Under the pieces are notes generated by a model. The model searched no databases. It had not been told where the DNA came from and was given only the letters and a program-made list of their open reading frames with translations. The position numbers were made by a program, and so were the translations under genes. From NCBI GenBank assembly GCA_965198005.1, contig CBDAOI010000004.1:2126763-2190762 (forward strand): a DNA stretch of 64,000 bases. The letters are read 5' to 3'. Positions within the stretch are counted from its first letter, which is position 1; every line of letters starts with the position of its first letter. Source of the stretch: Spirochaetia bacterium (GTDB taxonomy: Bacteria > Spirochaetota > Spirochaetia > SZUA-6 > Bin103). Shown here piece by piece: positions 50,151 through 55,957 of the stretch.

Positions 50151-50203
50151 CCTACCCTTCCTGTTGCGAATTATTGCGTCACGCTATATCAAATTGTCGA
50201 CTT

Positions 50204-50234
50204 GGTAAACCGGGTGGCTCCAGTATGGTTTACC
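50204..50234. promoter_or_regulatory. inverted repeat GGTAAACC-N15-GGTTTACC in the divergent promoter region
   Basis: Read directly in the reduced-GC spacer between the TPP-enzyme gene and the nuclease-helicase gene. A second inverted repeat CTATCG-N13-CGATAG lies at about 50236-50260. Confidence 0.35.
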
Positions 50235-50327
50235 TATCGATCCCGCAGCCGGCGATAGACTTCGAGACGCACTGCAACGCATAATGACAACCATGTCGTT
50301 CATGCTGCCCCCGCGTTCGTTGGCAAC

Positions 50328-53300
50328 ATGAAGCTGGTCGCCGATCTTCACCTCCACTCCCACTATTCCCGCGCCACCAGCCGAGACCTGACGCTCGAGC
50401 ATCTGTGGAAGTGGGCGCAGCTCAAGGGCGTGCAGGTGGTGGCCACCGGCGACATCGCCCATCCTGGCTGGCTGGCCGAGCTGCGCGACAAGCTGGAGCC
50501 GGCCGAAGCGGGACTGTTTCGGCTCAAGCCGGAGCATACGGCCGGCGTGGTCGACCAAGTGCCGGCGGCGTGCCGGGGGACCGTGCGCTTCCTGATCGGC
50601 GGCGAGCTCAGCAGCATCTACAAGAGGCACGACCGCACCCGCAAGGTGCACAACATCGTGTTCTCCCCGTCGTTCGAGGCCACCGCGCGGCTGCAGCAGG
50701 AGCTGGAGAAGATCGGCAACATCCGCTCCGACGGGCGCCCGATCCTGGGTCTGGACAGCCGCGACCTGCTGGAGATCGTGCTCCAGGTGGACCCCCGCTG
50801 CCACCTGATCCCGGCCCACGTCTGGACTCCCTGGTTCTCGATGCTCGGCTCGAAGTCGGGGTTCGACTCGGCGCAGGAGTGCTTCGCCGACCTGACGCCG
50901 CACCTCTTCGCGGTGGAGACCGGTCTCTCCTCGGACCCGCCGATGAACTGGCGCGTCTCCTGGCTGGACGACTACACGCTGATCTCCAGCTCCGACGCCC
51001 ACTCGCCGCAGAAGCTGGCGCGGGAGGCGACCCGGTTCGACACCGAGCTGAGCTATGACGCGCTGTTCGACGCGTTGCGCAGCGGCGATCGGGCGCGCTA
51101 CCACGGCACCATCGAGTTCTTCCCCGAGGAAGGCAAGTACCACCTGGACGGCCACCGCAAGTGTGGCGTCTGCTGGAAGCCGGTGACCACGCGCGCCCAC
51201 GGCGGACGCTGCTCCGCCTGCGGCAAGCCGGTGACGGTGGGCGTCTACCACCGGATGGAGGAGCTGGCCGACCGCCCGCGCGGCGCGCGCCCCGCCTGCG
51301 CCGGCCCGTTCGCCAGCCTCGTCCCGCTGCCGGAGGCGCTGGCCGAGATGCTCGGCGTCGGTCCCAACTCCAAGCGGGTCCAGGGCGAGTACCTGCGCCT
51401 GCTGGAGCGGTTGGGACCGGAGTTGGCCATTCTGCAGGACCTGCCGCTGGAGGAGATCGCCGCGGCCGGGGACCCGGTGCTGGTCGAGGGCATCCGTCGG
51501 ATGCGTGCCGGCGAGGTGCGTGCGCAAGGCGGCTACGACGGCGAATACGGAGTGATCCGCCTGTTCGACGGCGCCACCGACCGGTCGTCGGTGGTACAGC
51601 TCGGCATGTTCGGCGAGCTCGCGGGCGAGCCGGCGGCGGGAGCGATACCGGCCGCGCAGCCCCGCGCGGCCCCCGCCGCGGACGCGGTGATGGAGCGGGA
51701 CGTGCCGTACCAGGTTCGGCGCAACGAGGGCTCAGCAGCGCCGCAGCCGTCGGTTGCCACCGACTCCGACCCGACCCCGGGCGCGGCAGAGGCGGAAGCC
51801 GTACCTCCCGCGATCGGCGCGGCGCACGCCACCGGCGACGCAGCACCGGAGAGCGCCGCGCCCCGCAGCGCTGCGGCAACCGCGGCGCTTCCCGCACATC
51901 CGTCCGCATGGCTGGCCGGCCTCAACCCGGCGCAGCGCGAGGCGGCAACCCACACCGGCGGTCCGCTGGCGATCGTCGCCGGACCGGGCACCGGCAAGAC
52001 CCGTACGCTGACGGTACGCATTGGCCATCTGGTTCGGGGGCTCGGCGTGCCGCCGGCGTCGATTCTGGCGCTGACGTTCACCAACAAGGCGGCGGACGAA
52101 CTGCGCGCGCGCCTGAGCGAGCTGCTGGGAGCCGAGCAGGCGGCACCGATCACCGCCGGCACCTTCCATCAATTGGGCGCGCACCTGCTGCGGGAGTTTG
52201 CGGTTGCGGCCGGGGCCCCGCGCGGGTTCGCCGTATTCGACGAAGCCGACCGCAGGCTGCTGCTGAAGCAGAGCTGTCCGGAGCTGTCCGGCGGCGAGCT
52301 GCGGGCGGCGCTGGAGGCGATCTCGGCGGACAAGAATGGCCCGACGCCGGAAGCTGCGGGCGACCGGCCGGCCTCCCCCGTCGCCTTGCGGAGAGATGGC
52401 GTACCCAACGTGGCGACGCTCCGTGCCCGCTATGATGGCGCCCTCGCCGAGGCCGGCGGTCTGGACCTGGACGACCTGGTCGGCCGCAGCGTGCGCCTGC
52501 TGGAGACCGATCCGGTGGTGCGGCGGACGCTGCAGGCGCGCTTCCGCTGGATCTCGGTGGACGAATACCAGGACGTGAACGCCGCCCAGTACCGCCTGTT
52601 GCGCCTCCTGGCGGGCGGCGGCGCCAACGTGTGCGTGATCGGCGACCCCGACCAGGCGATCTACGGCTTCCGCGGGGCCGATCACCGCTACTTCATCGCC
52701 TTCGGCGACGACTTCCCGGACGCGCGCCGGCTTCACCTGGACCGCAACTACCGCTCGGCCCAGGGGATCCTGACCGCCGCCGGGCAGGTGATCGCGCGCA
52801 ACACCGACCATCGGGCGCCGGCCCTGATCGCCGACGTCGCCGCCCGCGTGAAGCTGGACGTGTACCGTGCGCCCACCGACCGGGCCGAGGCGGAGTACGT
52901 GGTGCACCAGGTGGAGCGGATGGTGGGCGGCACCAGCTACTTTTCCCTCGACTCGGGCCGGGTGGAGGACGACGGGCTGTCCGAGACCCACGCGTTCGGC
53001 GACTTCGCCGTCCTCTACCGCCTCAACGCTCAGGCGAGATTGCTGGAGGAGGCGTTCGACCGCTCCGGCATCCCCTACCAGTCCACCGGCGGCAGCGCGG
53101 CGGCGGAGCAGCAGCCACCGGTGCGCGAGATTCTCTCGCTGCTGTGGCTGACGCAGGTACCGGCCAGCCGGATCCACTGCTGGCGGATCCTGTCGGAGGG
53201 GTCCGGCGCGCCCACCGAACCGGCGGTCGAGGAACTGGTGAGGCGGCTTTCGGCCGCCGCCGGTTCCGCCCCCGTCGCAGAGCTGGTCCGGGCCGCGGCG

Positions 53301-54082: not shown

Positions 54083-54580
54083 GGCTACTCTCCGAGAGGC
54101 CTCCTCTCCCAACGGACCACGTCCACGGCCCGGATCATTGGCCACACCCCGTTCTCGAGCAAGCACGGCAAAGTATCGCTCCTTCACGGATACTTCACTG
54201 CGGACGTCGGACCACCTCCAGTCGCTAGGGAGATCAAGACCGGCGAGGACCCAGGTTTCCAACTCCTCCCACGCATTTTCGGCAAGGAACCGTCGGGGCA
54301 GGTTACCGAACTCTTTTTCGATTTGGTCGAGACGCCGGCGCCGCGAAGCAACACCGTCCCGGTCAACGCACAGGATGAACAGATCGGTCATCCCATCATA
54401 CTGTTCGACGATTTCCGCCACCCGTTCTGACTTCAACGCCTCATCAACGCCTCCAAGCAACGGATCCGTGCACACCGTGACGGTCGCCCGCACACTCAGA
54501 GATCGGAACAACCGCTGGAAAAGAGGCCTGAGAATATACTGATCATTCCGAAAGTCCTCAGGAATAATGAGGACGTTCAT
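54014..54580 (-). CDS. DUF4276/RloB-like TOPRIM-fold protein (AbiLii/AriB-like partner of the adjacent ATPase)
   Basis: N-terminal IIPED (TOPRIM Glu), LFILCVDRDGV (DxD) and the E.W..LA motif typical of the RloB/DUF4276 family. The start overlaps the ATPase stop (ATGA). Lower GC than the genome. Confidence 0.6.
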   Translation of the reverse strand: MNVLIIPEDFRNDQYILRPLFQRLFRSLSVRATVTVCTDPLLGGVDEALKSERVAEIVEQYDGMTDLFILCVDRDGVASRRRRLDQIEKEFGNLPRRFLAENAWEELETWVLAGLDLPSDWRWSDVRSEVSVKERYFAVLARERGVANDPGRGRGPLGEEASRRVASIRQKCHEDFDHLARRITTQMG

Positions 54581-55851
54581 CTAGAGTTTTCTCCATCCTT
54601 GCTCAGGTCGAACAGGACCGCGTTCTCCATCCAGCCGGACCGGTGGAGCCGTCCCAGTCCCTGCGACCGGCGTAACTTGACGGCGTTGGGTAACTTCGAG
54701 ACCGGAAGTACCACGGCATCGTCGGTATCCGGACGCCGGCACACAACGGACGTGTTCTCGAACGTGTCGGTGCCCACCAGTTCGATCAGGTCGGGTGAAT
54801 GGGTAGTGGTAACCACCTGGTACTCGCCGTTTGAAGTCTGGCCTTCGATCAGGTCGATCAGTAACTGCTGACGTGACGGATGAATCCCGTTATCGATCTC
54901 TTCGAACACGTAGAGGCCGGCCGGATTGGTCCCGAGCAGGGCCGCCAGCATCGCGAGAAAGCGCAGCGTCCCATCCGATGCGGAATAGGCGGACACCCTG
55001 TTGCCGTTCCGTTCGCAAAAGACGAGCTGGACGTGCCCGGTAGTCGGATCGGTCGGAAACTCGAAGTCGTGCACGTCCATCGGCGTCAGGGCTCGGGTCC
55101 ATTCCGCCAGTGTGATCTTGCGCCGTTCGTCCGTGCAAATCTCTTTCAGTACGGTAGACAGATTCCCACCGCTATCGCCCAGTACGGTCTGGCCTGGAAA
55201 CGCGGGTTGCCTCATACTGTTTGGCGACAAATCCAAGAAACGCATGTCGGCAAGGATCTTCATGACCCGCTCCGCCCATATCTTATGGAGCCTTACAACA
55301 CGTTTGTGTTCTCCAATCTGTGCCAGCGCCGGCTGGTCCGACCGCACCGCGATTCGGTGGCCGTATTTTTTCTGCTCTCCGGTCTTTGCCATGCGAAGCA
55401 GGAGATGGTTTTCGTGATCCTGATCGTGAACCGGATCGTACTTTCCGGGATGGCTCGTGTAAATCGGAGATCCGGCTAATTTCAGTTGTTCCGCGATTAC
55501 CTTGAATGATCCGGATTCTGCTCTGTCCATCCGAACCACGATCACGTAGGTCACCGTACTGCCATTCAGGGCAAGTCTCAACGACAGAGTGAATTGGGAG
55601 TGGCCGAAGCGCACCAGTTCCCTGGCCGTGCCTCGAATCTGCTCCCACTCAACGTGACCGCCGGCCCCGTACTTACCGCCAATGATGTCGGCCAGAGTGT
55701 ACCCTCGCCCAATGCCGTGCAGGAATCTGAACGCGTCACGGAGGTTGCTCTTGCCGCTCGCGTTGGCGCCCACGATCACGGTGAACGGGCCCATGCGTAC
55801 CGTTGCGTCGGGAAAGTTTTTGAAGTTGATCAGACGAAGCGCAGTGATCAT
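54577..55851 (-). CDS. AAA family ATPase (ABC/SMC-like, AAA_15/21; AbiLi/AriA/OLD-ATPase-like)
   Basis: MITALRLINFKNF start, Walker A GANASGKSN, Walker B/D-loop LYVFEEIDNGIHP, H-loop TTHSP. GC is about 55-58%. Start set at ATG 55851, not the TTG at 55917 used by the ORF caller. A TATAAT lies at 55900-55905. Confidence 0.8.
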   Translation of the reverse strand: MITALRLINFKNFPDATVRMGPFTVIVGANASGKSNLRDAFRFLHGIGRGYTLADIIGGKYGAGGHVEWEQIRGTARELVRFGHSQFTLSLRLALNGSTVTYVIVVRMDRAESGSFKVIAEQLKLAGSPIYTSHPGKYDPVHDQDHENHLLLRMAKTGEQKKYGHRIAVRSDQPALAQIGEHKRVVRLHKIWAERVMKILADMRFLDLSPNSMRQPAFPGQTVLGDSGGNLSTVLKEICTDERRKITLAEWTRALTPMDVHDFEFPTDPTTGHVQLVFCERNGNRVSAYSASDGTLRFLAMLAALLGTNPAGLYVFEEIDNGIHPSRQQLLIDLIEGQTSNGEYQVVTTTHSPDLIELVGTDTFENTSVVCRRPDTDDAVVLPVSKLPNAVKLRRSQGLGRLHRSGWMENAVLFDLSKDGENSR

Positions 55852-55957
55852 GGGCGTCGGTGCGGGTGCGTCGGCGGCATACCGGAAGTCATGGCGCAGA
55901 TTATACCGTAAGGCCAACCAACTAGTCTGGCAACGGCACCGTCGAGGTGGACGGGCG

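What the first reader, a model, noticed from the sequence alone, without database searches (positions are those of the whole stretch)
50151..55950. Possible composite, Gabija-like defense locus: UvrD helicase gene converging on a split ATPase/TOPRIM pair
Gabija consists of GajA (ABC-type ATPase fused to an OLD TOPRIM nuclease) and GajB (UvrD-like helicase). Here the same three functional units lie within 5.6 kb but are arranged differently: ATPase and TOPRIM are separate proteins, and the UvrD helicase is fused to a PHP nuclease. The genes converge rather than forming one operon. The ATPase/TOPRIM pair is compositionally foreign while the helicase is native. Two readings are possible. One is a chance juxtaposition of a repair helicase and an inserted Abi module. 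The other is an integration hotspot or functional association at a defense island.
Basis: inference. Interest (0 to 1): 0.55.

Follow-up and report, generated by a model that had tools for sequence, protein, structure and literature searches.

The report
Defence-type gene pair beside repair helicase
A two-gene ATPase plus small-nuclease cassette of foreign composition, of a kind predicted to defend against phages, lies tail-to-tail with a native DNA-repair nuclease-helicase gene, and comparison with other genomes shows two independent units rather than a Gabija-like three-part system.

Summary
A 1155-aa protein (50328-53795, +) fuses an Endonuclease Q-type PHP nuclease to an intact UvrD/PcrA helicase. 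It converges on a translationally coupled pair on the minus strand: an ABC ATPase (54577-55851) and a 188-aa Toprim-like protein (54014-54580). The pair is the only strong compositional outlier in the 64 kb window (GC 0.57-0.58 against 0.72; GC3 0.61-0.71 against 0.90).

The Gabija reading is not supported.
- The helicase family is widespread. In 80 diverse genomes its neighbours are housekeeping genes, and none is an AAA_21 or Toprim gene.
- The pair occurs without this helicase in seven or eight other contexts, twice directly after type I restriction-modification genes.
- In one relative, the pair and the helicase lie 340 kb apart.
- The ATPase matches the untested PADLOC candidates PDC-M07A and HEC-01A best. 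The small protein is a divergent DUF4276/RloB-type Toprim.

One point remains open. In the window's own clade (helicase 76-88% identical), the convergent three-gene block persists in three otherwise unrelated neighbourhoods. The cassette also shows allele replacement in place, is swapped for HigBA in one genome, and is absent in another. I read this as an old insertion at a variable site. A functional link keeps about 10% probability.

The parts
50328..53795 (+). EndoQ-UvrD fusion protein, 1155 aa. Native composition (GC 0.72, GC3 0.905).
50328..51566 (+). Endonuclease Q-like module (residues 1-413): PHP metal site, Cys4 zinc finger and C-terminal helical domain. The motifs DLHLHSH, VHN, PAHVWTPW, SDAHSP, KCGVC and RCSACG align to the PfuEndoQ metal ligands.
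   Evidence: PDB 5zb8/7k30/7k31, E 2e-45 to 1e-44, residues 4-413 against 4-383. (TIGR00375, 1.7e-41). (PHP_C, double zinc ribbon, both weak).
51567..51908 (+). Ala/Pro-rich linker (residues 414-527). It is poorly conserved and varies in length among relatives (proteins of 1100-1500 aa).
   Evidence: The tblastn alignments break between about residue 431 and 528.
51909..53795 (+). SF1A UvrD/PcrA-type helicase module (residues 528-1155) with intact motifs: I GPGTGKT, Ia TFTNKAA, II VDEYQD, III GDPDQAIYGFRGA, IV NYRS, V AKGLEF, VI VGMTRAR.
   Evidence: PF00580 2.6e-66, UvrD_C 2.3e-40. (PcrA 437 bits, below cutoff). (GajB models up to 267 bits, a generic UvrD hit)..
53861..54082 (+). Small ORF of 73 aa downstream of the helicase. 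It has a GAGAGG ribosome-binding site 5 nt upstream and an N-terminal hydrophobic helix. Its first ~52 residues match a 100-aa protein at the same position in L092. Its last 69 nt run antisense through the 3' end of the Toprim-like gene, so its C-terminus appears to have been replaced at the island boundary.
54014..54580 (-). 188-aa Toprim-like protein, a divergent DUF4276/RloB relative. Invariant or nearly invariant residues are E8, D13, D73-R74-D75, E106 and E108. GC 0.566, GC3 0.61.
54577..55851 (-). 424-aa ABC-type ATPase (AAA_21/AAA_15/SMC_N). Motifs: Walker A G28-ANASGKS-35, signature SDGTLR, Walker B VFEEID, H-loop TTHSP. Its stop overlaps the start of the Toprim-like gene (ATGA). GC 0.579, GC3 0.71.
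   Evidence: (PDC-M07A 1.8e-65 full length; HEC-01A 7e-42; AriA 6.5e-33; mad3 1.4e-23). (MADS3 99 bits against a 420-bit cutoff). (424-aa homologues).
54014..55950 (.). Low-GC island of about 1.9 kb that holds only the two cassette genes. No integrase, tRNA or flanking repeats were found. DNA homology to relatives' cassettes spans about 54049-55859.

Best explanation
Two independent units lie tail-to-tail.

(A) A native chromosomal gene encodes an Endonuclease Q-UvrD/PcrA fusion. By inference from characterised EndoQ and SF1A helicases, the EndoQ module nicks DNA 5' of deaminated or abasic bases (dU, dI, dX, AP sites). The fused 3'-5' helicase then unwinds from the nick so that the damaged strand can be replaced.

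(B) A horizontally acquired, translationally coupled two-gene cassette encodes an ABC ATPase and a small DUF4276/RloB-type Toprim protein. By analogy with PARIS, OLD, MADS3-4 and Menshen, the ATPase probably acts as the sensor and regulator, and holds or activates the Toprim nuclease effector on infection. This step is inferred and has not been shown for this family.

The cassette entered the 3' flank of the helicase gene in an ancestor of the window's clade and has been inherited there. That flank is a variable site, where the cassette has been exchanged for divergent alleles, replaced by HigBA, interrupted by an IS element, degraded or lost. The helicase is not a component of the cassette's system.
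For: Identity of A:
- EndoQ homology at E 2e-45 over the whole EndoQ length, with the metal-ligand and zinc-finger motifs aligned.
- Intact UvrD motifs.
- Host-like GC3 of 0.905.
- The fusion is widespread: 594 of 600 candidate stretches in species-representative genomes encode a relative, across Chloroflexota, Actinomycetota, Bacillota, Desulfobacterota, Planctomycetota and others.
- Within Micromonosporaceae its neighbours are syntenic, as expected of a vertically inherited gene.
- Its 141 immediate neighbours in 80 genomes are housekeeping genes (Metallophos 11, Peptidase_A24 5, Ogt-type methyltransferase 2). None is an AAA_21/AAA_15 or Toprim gene. Only 1 of 80 loci gives even a weak ATPase hit, and that hit lies 6 kb away.

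Identity of B:
- PDC-M07A 1.8e-65 and HEC-01A 7e-42.
- A 4-nt gene overlap.
- Toprim motifs and topology, and family members that reach DUF4276 and RloB. Both are published as Toprim-fold effectors (PMC12065111).
- GC below the host's in every genome examined.

Autonomy of B:
- It directly follows HsdR-YgjP of type I restriction-modification systems in L103 and L107.
- It sits near an integrase on a cyanobacterial plasmid.
- No EndoQ-UvrD is present in L087-L090.
- In the 4.97 Mb genome that carries helicase L105, the pair lies 340 kb away.

Variable site:
- L106 has a 127-aa protein plus HigB in place of the pair.
- L099 has a DDE transposase exactly at the junction.
- In L092 the small gene is degraded.
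- L093 and L102 are 97-100% identical in their flanks but only 60-88% identical across the cassette.
Against: Within the window's clade the convergent block (helicase, small ORF, pair) is the only thing conserved. It occurs in three neighbourhoods that share no other gene:
- Na/H exchanger and TPP enzyme in the window and L091.
- RF1, PrmC, RelA and epimerase on one side, PIN, AAA_14 and integrase on the other, in L081-86.
- Rhamnosidase and a 492-515-aa protein in L092-98, L102 and L104.

None of 24 neighbour proteins from those contexts has a homologue anywhere in the 64 kb window. All four outer junctions are broken and the inner junction is kept both times. A rough estimate of mine puts that at about 0.05 by chance.

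The pair tree and the helicase tree are broadly congruent.

The pair keeps a low GC3 despite what appears to be long residence, and simple amelioration does not explain this.

In L105 a different ABC ATPase (NsnB-like, 8e-44) lies 28 nt upstream of the orthologous helicase on the same strand.

No defence activity has been shown for this family. The tested HEC-01 representative protected against none of the phages tried.
Confidence: 0.7

Rival explanations
1. This is a true three-component, Gabija-like system. The split ABC ATPase/Toprim pair senses infection and cuts nucleic acid, while the EndoQ-UvrD protein acts as the GajB-like helicase partner, either unwinding and processing the cut DNA or sensing DNA ends. 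The genes are kept adjacent by selection even though they are transcribed convergently.
For: - The block persists in three otherwise unrelated neighbourhoods in one clade.
- The trees are congruent.
- The domain set is the same as in Gabija: ABC ATPase, Toprim, UvrD.
- A second, unrelated ABC ATPase lies directly upstream of the orthologous helicase in L105.
- A review relays a published suggestion that bacterial EndoQ might act against uracil-DNA phages (PMC8307549).
Against: - The association is confined to one clade, consistent with a single ancestral event.
- 0 of 80 diverse helicase loci carry the pair and 0 of 141 neighbours are ATPase or Toprim genes.
- 0 of 7 more distant pair loci have the helicase.
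- One genome of the clade has both, 340 kb apart, with the pair embedded in a type I restriction-modification island.
- L106 keeps the helicase but carries HigBA instead of the pair.
- The orientation is convergent, and GC3 differs strongly (0.61-0.71 against 0.90).
- The helicase scores better against PcrA/UvrD (437 bits) than against any GajB model (at most 267 bits).
- GajA models are not among the ATPase's top hits.
Confidence: 0.12
2. The pair is not an anti-phage system. It is instead a selfish addiction module, or a restriction-modification-associated accessory module (Rlo-like), that persists by post-segregational toxicity or by riding with R-M loci. Its position by the helicase has no meaning.
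For: - It is tightly appended to HsdR-YgjP in two independent loci, as with RloA/RloB-type genes in type I R-M loci (PMC12065111).
- The site is shared with toxin-antitoxin cassettes: HigBA in L106, and PIN plus an 80-aa protein by the helicase in L081.
- HEC-01 gave no protection in assays.
- It is rare on plasmids (2 of 72,556 records) and absent from 50,697 phage records.
Against: - Related ABC ATPase plus Toprim pairs (PARIS, MADS3-4, AbiL, HEC-04) are validated defences.
- The sharply bounded allelic divergence of the cassette between near-identical genomes is typical of genes under diversifying selection from parasites.
- It is embedded in defence islands next to PDC-M31 and type I R-M.
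Confidence: 0.1
3. The three genes form one mobile block that moves between related high-GC genomes as a unit, which would explain the different flanks.
For: DNA homology between the window and relatives begins exactly at the helicase start codon and ends at the ATPase start codon, 50325-55859. All outer flanks differ. An integrase and an AAA_14 gene lie near the block in L083/L084.
Against: - The window has no integrase, tRNA, or terminal or direct repeats at the block ends.
- The helicase's GC3 equals that of the host's core genes.
- L105 and the L093 group share nearby genes (107-aa and 136-aa proteins, PhyH, M20) around the helicase, which points to chromosomal descent with local insertions.
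- The helicase is stably syntenic in other families.
Confidence: 0.05

Closest known systems
PADLOC candidate systems PDC-M07 and HEC-01 (ABC ATPase plus separate Toprim protein)
   Same: The ATPase matches PDC-M07A over its full length (1.8e-65) and HEC-01A (7e-42). It forms a two-gene operon with a small Toprim-like partner (HEC-01B, E 0.004). It is found embedded in or appended to other defence loci (type I R-M in L103 and L107).
   Different: The small protein matches no PDC-M07 B-component model, and matches HEC-01B only weakly. Neither candidate has demonstrated activity, and HEC-01 gave no protection in the published assay.
PARIS (AriA ABC ATPase plus AriB DUF4435 Toprim nuclease)
   Different: The effector is 188 aa and DUF4276/RloB-like, not DUF4435 (about 35 kDa). 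The ATPase is closer to other model families. Nothing is known about a trigger or target.
Gabija (GajA ATPase-Toprim fusion plus GajB UvrD helicase; OLD class 2)
   Same: The same three domain types lie within 5.6 kb: ABC ATPase, Toprim and UvrD-like helicase. GajB models hit the helicase domain (1e-79), as they would hit any UvrD.
   Different: - The ATPase and Toprim are separate proteins.
- The helicase is a 1155-aa EndoQ fusion that is closer to PcrA/UvrD.
- The genes are convergent and compositionally distinct.
- There is no co-occurrence outside one clade.
MADS MAD3/MAD4 and RloA/RloB-type modules (ABC ATPase plus DUF4276/RloB Toprim) associated with methylation or type I R-M systems
   Same: mad3 hits at 1.4e-23 and NCBIfam MADS3 at 3.5e-28. 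The partner is of DUF4276/RloB type. Relatives are appended to type I R-M operons.
   Different: The score is far below the MADS3 equivalog cutoff (99 against 420 bits). There are no other MADS genes, and in the window there are no R-M genes nearby.
Endonuclease Q (Pyrococcus furiosus PF1551; Bacillus homologues)
   Same: Residues 4-413 align to the whole of PfuEndoQ (E 2e-45), with the PHP metal ligands and Cys4 zinc finger conserved. EndoQ cleaves 5' of dU, dI, dX and AP sites (PMC4357722).
   Different: Here it is fused through an Ala/Pro-rich linker to a complete UvrD/PcrA helicase. I found no paper describing this fusion: a search for EndoQ with UvrD returned only reviews.

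Membership tests
Gabija (GajA/GajB) | GajA is a single polypeptide with an N-terminal ABC ATPase and a C-terminal OLD-type Toprim (about 580 aa) | tested here: not met
   The ATPase (424 aa) and the Toprim-like protein (188 aa) are separate ORFs. No GajA model is among the 25 best PADLOC hits. The Old model hits only the P-loop region at 1.6e-11.
Gabija (GajA/GajB) | The GajB UvrD-like helicase is encoded next to gajA in the same operon | tested here: not met
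   The helicase is on the opposite strand and convergent. It is an EndoQ fusion of 1155 aa. PcrA scores 437 bits against at most 267 bits for GajB models. GC3 is 0.905 against 0.61-0.71.
Gabija (GajA/GajB) | The two components co-occur across unrelated genomes | tested here: not met
   0 of 80 helicase loci carry the pair and 0 of 141 neighbours are AAA_21 or Toprim genes. Pair loci L087-90, L103, L107 and L108 lack the helicase. Adjacency is found only within one clade.
Gabija (GajA/GajB) | GajA and GajB form a physical complex, and defence depends on the helicase | not testable with these tools
   This needs co-purification and phage assays.
PARIS (AriA/AriB) | AriA-type ABC ATPase (AAA_15/AAA_21) encoded next to the effector | tested here: inconclusive
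   AriA models hit at 6.5e-33 and 7e-18, clearly weaker than PDC-M07A (1.8e-65) and HEC-01A (7e-42). The two-gene operon with a 4-nt overlap is present.
PARIS (AriA/AriB) | AriB effector with a DUF4435 Toprim domain | tested here: not met
PDC-M07 / HEC-01 (PADLOC candidates: ABC ATPase plus Toprim) | A-component ATPase matching the family model over its full length | tested here: met
   PDC-M07A scores 1.8e-65, residues 23-434 of the long ORF against profile positions 1-407 of 432. HEC-01A scores 7.4e-42.
PDC-M07 / HEC-01 (PADLOC candidates: ABC ATPase plus Toprim) | B-component matching the family model | tested here: inconclusive
   HEC-01B scores E 0.0042 and 0.0098 only, and no PDC-M07 B model is hit.
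PDC-M07 / HEC-01 (PADLOC candidates: ABC ATPase plus Toprim) | Anti-phage activity | not testable with these tools
   The published HEC-01 representative gave no protection against the phages tested (bioRxiv 10.1101/2024.01.29.577857).
Toprim superfamily, DUF4276/RloB branch | Conserved Glu after strand 1 and a DxD motif after strand 3 | tested here: met
   E8 is invariant, and D73-R74-D75 is invariant or nearly invariant in alignments A1 (39 sequences) and A3 (46 sequences, 31-54% identity). E106 and E108 are also conserved. In the model, strand 1 ends at residue 6-7 and strand 3 at residue 70-71. The criterion is taken from PMC12065111.
Toprim superfamily, DUF4276/RloB branch | Significant match to the Pfam DUF4276 or RloB models | tested here: inconclusive
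   The window protein scores DUF4276 E 0.015, 15.9 bits against a 30.2-bit cutoff. Among 46 diverse members of its family, 9 hit DUF4276 (best 2e-7) and 4 hit RloB (best 0.0018). The homology is therefore transitive, not direct.
Toprim superfamily, DUF4276/RloB branch | Structural similarity to solved Toprim nucleases | tested here: inconclusive
Endonuclease Q | Homology over the PHP domain, zinc finger and C-terminal helical domain, with metal ligands conserved | tested here: met
   PDB 5zb8 at E 2.1e-45, and 7k31 aligned 5-412 against 5-382. The motifs HxH, VH, PAH, SDAH and the four Cys align. I could not place the equivalent of Pfu E76 with certainty, because the alignment has a gap at residues 67-103.
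Endonuclease Q | Cleavage 5' of dU, dI, dX or AP sites | not testable with these tools
   This needs a biochemical assay.
SF1A UvrD/PcrA/Rep helicases | Helicase motifs I-VI and the UvrD N- and C-terminal domains | tested here: met
   PF00580 at 2.6e-66 over the full profile and PF13361 at 2.3e-40. All motifs were read in the translation. It falls below the equivalog cutoffs for PcrA, UvrD and Rep, so it is a distinct subfamily.

The most novel reading that the evidence does not exclude
In one bacterial clade, a split ABC-ATPase/DUF4276-type Toprim pair has been functionally coupled to an Endonuclease Q-UvrD fusion. This would be a Gabija-like tripartite system whose helicase arm also carries a lesion- or uracil-specific nuclease, for example to attack dU-containing or damaged phage DNA. 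It would explain why the convergent block survives in three unrelated neighbourhoods. It would also explain why a different ABC ATPase (NsnB-like) lies directly upstream of the orthologous helicase in another relative.
Probability: 0.1. Interest if true: 0.65.

Novelty: new member of a known kind. Interest (0 to 1): 0.3.

Why it matters
The practical lesson is cautionary. The same domain set as Gabija within a few kilobases does not make a Gabija-like system. Here the helicase is a widespread repair-type EndoQ-UvrD fusion, and the ATPase/Toprim pair is an autonomous cassette.

Two things remain of modest value.
- The pair belongs to a large, highly conserved but experimentally unvalidated family. 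It comprises 646 clusters at 50% identity, is often appended to type I R-M systems, and shows allele replacement in place. That makes it a reasonable candidate for defence testing.
- The EndoQ-UvrD fusion is very widespread in bacteria and appears not to have been studied. It suggests a one-protein nick-and-unwind pathway for deaminated bases.

If the clade-specific linkage proved functional, it would be a new Gabija-like architecture.

Tried and rejected
- Flanking repeats, tRNA or integrase as marks of a mobile island. Only short chance-level repeats were found, the nearest tRNA is at 7.5 kb, and there is no integrase.
- Rfam families in 48-58 kb: none.
- Promoter and terminator scan of 53.6-56.2 kb: counts at shuffle level, nothing usable.
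- Metagenome scan for the ATPase: only 4 loci. I therefore relied on exact-protein look-ups, and all 12 were used.
- Look-up of the 100%-identical small protein P0121: not on record.
- The afdb50 fold library was not available.
- Foldseek against the PDB gave only generic Rossmann-like hits.
- Profile searches of the PDB with the small-protein family found nothing relevant.
The nearest named genomes for the helicase are Caldilineaceae, at 64% identity.
- A search for PDC-M07 in the literature returned no papers.
- Matching of contig lengths between the hit lists suggested further contigs that carry both genes (127101, 47422, 22169, 17866 and 1078906 bp). I could not verify adjacency, so these are not counted.
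- I considered the idea that the whole window is a defence island and rejected it. The cassette is the only low-GC bin, and the flanking genes are a TPP enzyme, an ABC transporter, a Na/H exchanger, a pseudouridine synthase and PdxS.

Full report
**What is there**

The window is high-GC (0.68 overall), and the region holds three real genes and one small ORF.

On the plus strand, 50328-53795 encodes a 1155-aa protein.
- Residues about 528-1155 form a complete SF1A UvrD/PcrA-type helicase (PF00580 2.6e-66, UvrD_C 2.3e-40), with motifs I-VI intact.
- Residues 4-413 are homologous to the whole of Pyrococcus furiosus Endonuclease Q (PDB 5zb8/7k30/7k31, E about 1e-45). The PHP metal-ligand motifs and the Cys4 zinc finger align (TIGR00375 1.7e-41).
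- EndoQ cleaves DNA 5' of deoxyuridine, deoxyinosine, deoxyxanthosine and abasic sites (PMC4357722).

On the minus strand lies the cassette.
- 54577-55851 encodes a 424-aa ABC-type ATPase (AAA_21 8.5e-32, AAA_15, SMC_N; Walker A, signature, Walker B and H-loop all present).
- Its stop overlaps the start of a 188-aa ORF at 54014-54580 by 4 nt.

The two transcription units converge. Between them lies a 73-aa ORF (53861-54082, +) with a good ribosome-binding site.

**Composition**

The pair has GC 0.57-0.58 and GC3 0.61-0.71. The helicase has GC 0.72 and GC3 0.905, and the flanking genes have GC3 0.87-0.89. The 54-56 kb bin is the lowest of all 32 two-kilobase bins in the window. The island is about 1.9 kb and holds only these two genes. 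I found no integrase, tRNA or meaningful flanking repeats.

**What the small protein is**

- It has no Pfam hit above threshold (DUF4276 E 0.015) and only weak PADLOC hits (HEC-01B E 0.004).
- Its family is well defined: 2580 hits in the 90% database and 646 clusters at 50% identity.
- In a 46-sequence alignment spanning 31-54% identity, E8, D13 and E108 are invariant, and D73-R74-D75 and E106 are nearly so.
- An AlphaFold model (pLDDT 90.4) shows alternating strands and helices, with E8 just after strand 1 and the DxD just after strand 3. This is the Toprim signature as defined in the literature (PMC12065111).
- Nine of the 46 diverse family members hit Pfam DUF4276 (best 2e-7) and four hit RloB. 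Both were recently assigned to the Toprim superfamily as defence effectors.

I accept 'Toprim-like, DUF4276/RloB branch' on motifs, topology and transitive homology.

**What the ATPase is**

Its best matches are the PADLOC candidates PDC-M07A (1.8e-65, full length) and HEC-01A (7e-42). AriA, AbiLi, mad3, NsnB and Old follow further down. It is far below the NCBIfam MADS3 cutoff. HEC-01 is described as an ABC ATPase plus a Toprim protein found embedded in Hma systems. Its tested representative did not protect against any phage tried. The PARIS paper lists DUF4276 and RloB among the partner domains of AAA15/21 defence ATPases.

**Is the helicase part of the system? Evidence from other genomes**

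(a) Helicase-centred survey. A scan of species-representative genomes found at least 594 loci encoding this EndoQ-UvrD fusion across many phyla. The nearest named genomes are Caldilineaceae, at 64% identity.
- In the 80 best loci, none carries the pair, and one has a weak ATPase hit 6 kb away.
- Conserved neighbours exist only within Micromonosporaceae, which indicates ordinary vertical synteny.
- The 141 immediate neighbours are housekeeping genes (Metallophos 11, Peptidase_A24 5, and so on), with no AAA_21/15 or Toprim genes and only sporadic PADLOC hits.

(b) Pair-centred survey. More distant copies (ATPase 63-69% identical) lack the helicase.
- L087-L090.
- L103 and L107, where the pair directly follows HsdR and a YgjP-like gene of type I restriction-modification systems. 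In L107 it also lies next to a PDC-M31 pair.
- A cyanobacterial plasmid, where it lies near an integrase.
- The pair has lower GC than its host in every case.

(c) Both genes in one genome. The 4.97 Mb genome that contains L107 also contains an orthologous EndoQ-UvrD (L105), 340 kb away and without the pair.

**The complication**

In the window's own clade (helicase 76-88% identical, PHP domain about 90%), the same convergent arrangement recurs in three neighbourhoods that share nothing else.
- The window and L091: Na/H exchanger | pair | helicase | TPP enzyme.
- L081-L086: RF1, PrmC, RelA, epimerase | pair | helicase, PIN, 80-aa protein | AAA_14, integrase.
- L092-L098, L102 and L104: MR_MLE, rhamnosidase | pair | helicase | 492-515-aa protein.

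None of 24 neighbour proteins from those contexts has a homologue in the 64 kb window. DNA homology runs exactly from the helicase start codon to the ATPase start codon. Identity matrices for the pair and the helicase are broadly congruent. The small ORF between them is shared. The junction is therefore ancestral, not the result of repeated insertion.

With all four outer junctions broken and the inner junction kept twice, my rough estimate of chance retention is about 0.05. That is suggestive, not decisive.

**The same site is variable**

- L106 keeps the rhamnosidase and the helicase but has a 127-aa protein plus HigB in place of the pair.
- L105 has nothing there, and instead has an NsnB-like ABC ATPase 28 nt upstream of the helicase.
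- L099 has a DDE transposase inserted exactly at the junction.
- In L092 the Toprim gene is degraded and the helicase is frameshifted.
- L093 and L102 are 97-100% identical in flanking DNA but only 60-88% identical from the end of the rhamnosidase gene to the 3' end of the helicase gene. This is a sharply bounded allelic replacement or diversification of the cassette in place, which is typical behaviour for defence genes.

**Verdict**

The best-supported reading (about 0.7) is two independent units.
- One is a native EndoQ-UvrD repair protein. Its mechanism is inferred: it nicks 5' of a deaminated or abasic base, then unwinds from the nick.
- The other is an autonomous ABC-ATPase/Toprim cassette of the PDC-M07/HEC-01/MADS3-4/PARIS kind. 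Its mechanism is inferred by analogy: the ATPase senses infection and regulates the Toprim nuclease effector.
- The cassette entered the helicase's 3' flank in an ancestor of this clade and has stayed at what is now a variable cassette site.

Membership in Gabija fails on all three testable defining features. A functional, Gabija-like coupling restricted to this clade cannot be excluded, and I give it about 0.1. It would need genetics, interaction data, or a whole-genome estimate of background synteny retention.

The finding is a new member of a known kind. The side observations that deserve some attention are the widespread, apparently unstudied EndoQ-UvrD fusion and the allele turnover of the cassette in place.

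Noticed in passing
window 53861-54082 (+); L092:9541-9843 (-); L102:9861-10025 (-): A small ORF with an N-terminal hydrophobic helix lies just downstream of the helicase. In L092 it is 100 aa. In the window only the first ~52 residues are homologous, and the remaining 21 codons run antisense through the 3' end of the Toprim-like gene. The cassette boundary appears to have remodelled its C-terminus.
   Followed up: partly
L093:7625-10322 compared with L102: Two near-identical genomes (flanks 97-100% DNA identity) differ sharply across the cassette only (60-88% identity; ATPase 82% aa against helicase 97% aa). This indicates allele replacement or diversifying selection in place.
   Followed up: partly
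L105:6680-7972 (+), 28 nt upstream of the helicase at L105:8001-11564: In a relative that lacks the pair at this site, an unrelated ABC ATPase lies directly upstream of the orthologous EndoQ-UvrD gene on the same strand. It is NsnB/Menshen-like (8e-44), and no NsnA or NsnC is evident.
   Followed up: partly
L106:11866-12664 (-): A HigB toxin (100 aa) and a 127-aa putative antitoxin occupy exactly the position of the pair, between the rhamnosidase and the helicase 3' end.
   Followed up: partly
L107:1400-14088 and L103:414-9865: Copies of the pair 68-69% identical to the window's are appended to type I R-M operons (HsdM/S/R, YgjP-like). In L107 the pair converges on a PDC-M31 A+B pair (4.5e-142 and 2.3e-66). 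This looks like a genuine defence island.
   Followed up: partly
L081:12514-13222 (-) and L083/L084:15330-15962: In the L081 group a PIN-domain gene overlaps the helicase start by 4 nt and is preceded by an 80-aa gene, which looks VapBC-like. An AAA_14 gene and a phage-type integrase follow. The helicase's 5' flank therefore also collects mobile or toxin-antitoxin genes.
   Followed up: no
L092:9247-9393 and L092:10105-13946: In this genome the Toprim-like gene is reduced to a fragment (residues 101-149) and the EndoQ-UvrD gene is split by a frameshift (1054 aa plus 241 aa). Both partners are decaying in the same genome.
   Followed up: no
L099:2782-4158: A DDE transposase (DDE_Tnp_1) is inserted exactly at the junction between the pair and the helicase. 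The sequence up to the junction is 98.7% identical to L096.
   Followed up: partly
L001-L080, immediate neighbours of the helicase: The commonest neighbour of EndoQ-UvrD genes across phyla is a calcineurin-like metallophosphoesterase (Metallophos, 11 of 141 neighbours). Two neighbours are O6-methylguanine methyltransferases. This hints at a repair context.
   Followed up: no
window 54014-55851 and homologous cassettes in L081, L087-L090: The pair keeps a GC3 20-30 points below its host genes, although the junction with the helicase looks as old as the clade (helicase 76-88% identical). Simple amelioration would have erased this, and I have no explanation for it.
   Followed up: no
window 50328-53795; EndoQ-UvrD fusions of 1100-1500 aa are very common in bacterial genomes and metagenomes, where they are annotated only as 'UvrD-helicase domain-containing' or 'TIGR00375 family'. 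I found no paper describing the fusion.
   Followed up: partly
contig of L106 (17,866 bp), positions 1-1786, not fetched: An ATPase cluster (P0114, 65% identical) lists a longest contig of exactly the same length as the L106 contig. A second, divergent copy of the pair may therefore lie about 8 kb upstream of that helicase. I could not verify this because the look-ups were exhausted.
   Followed up: no
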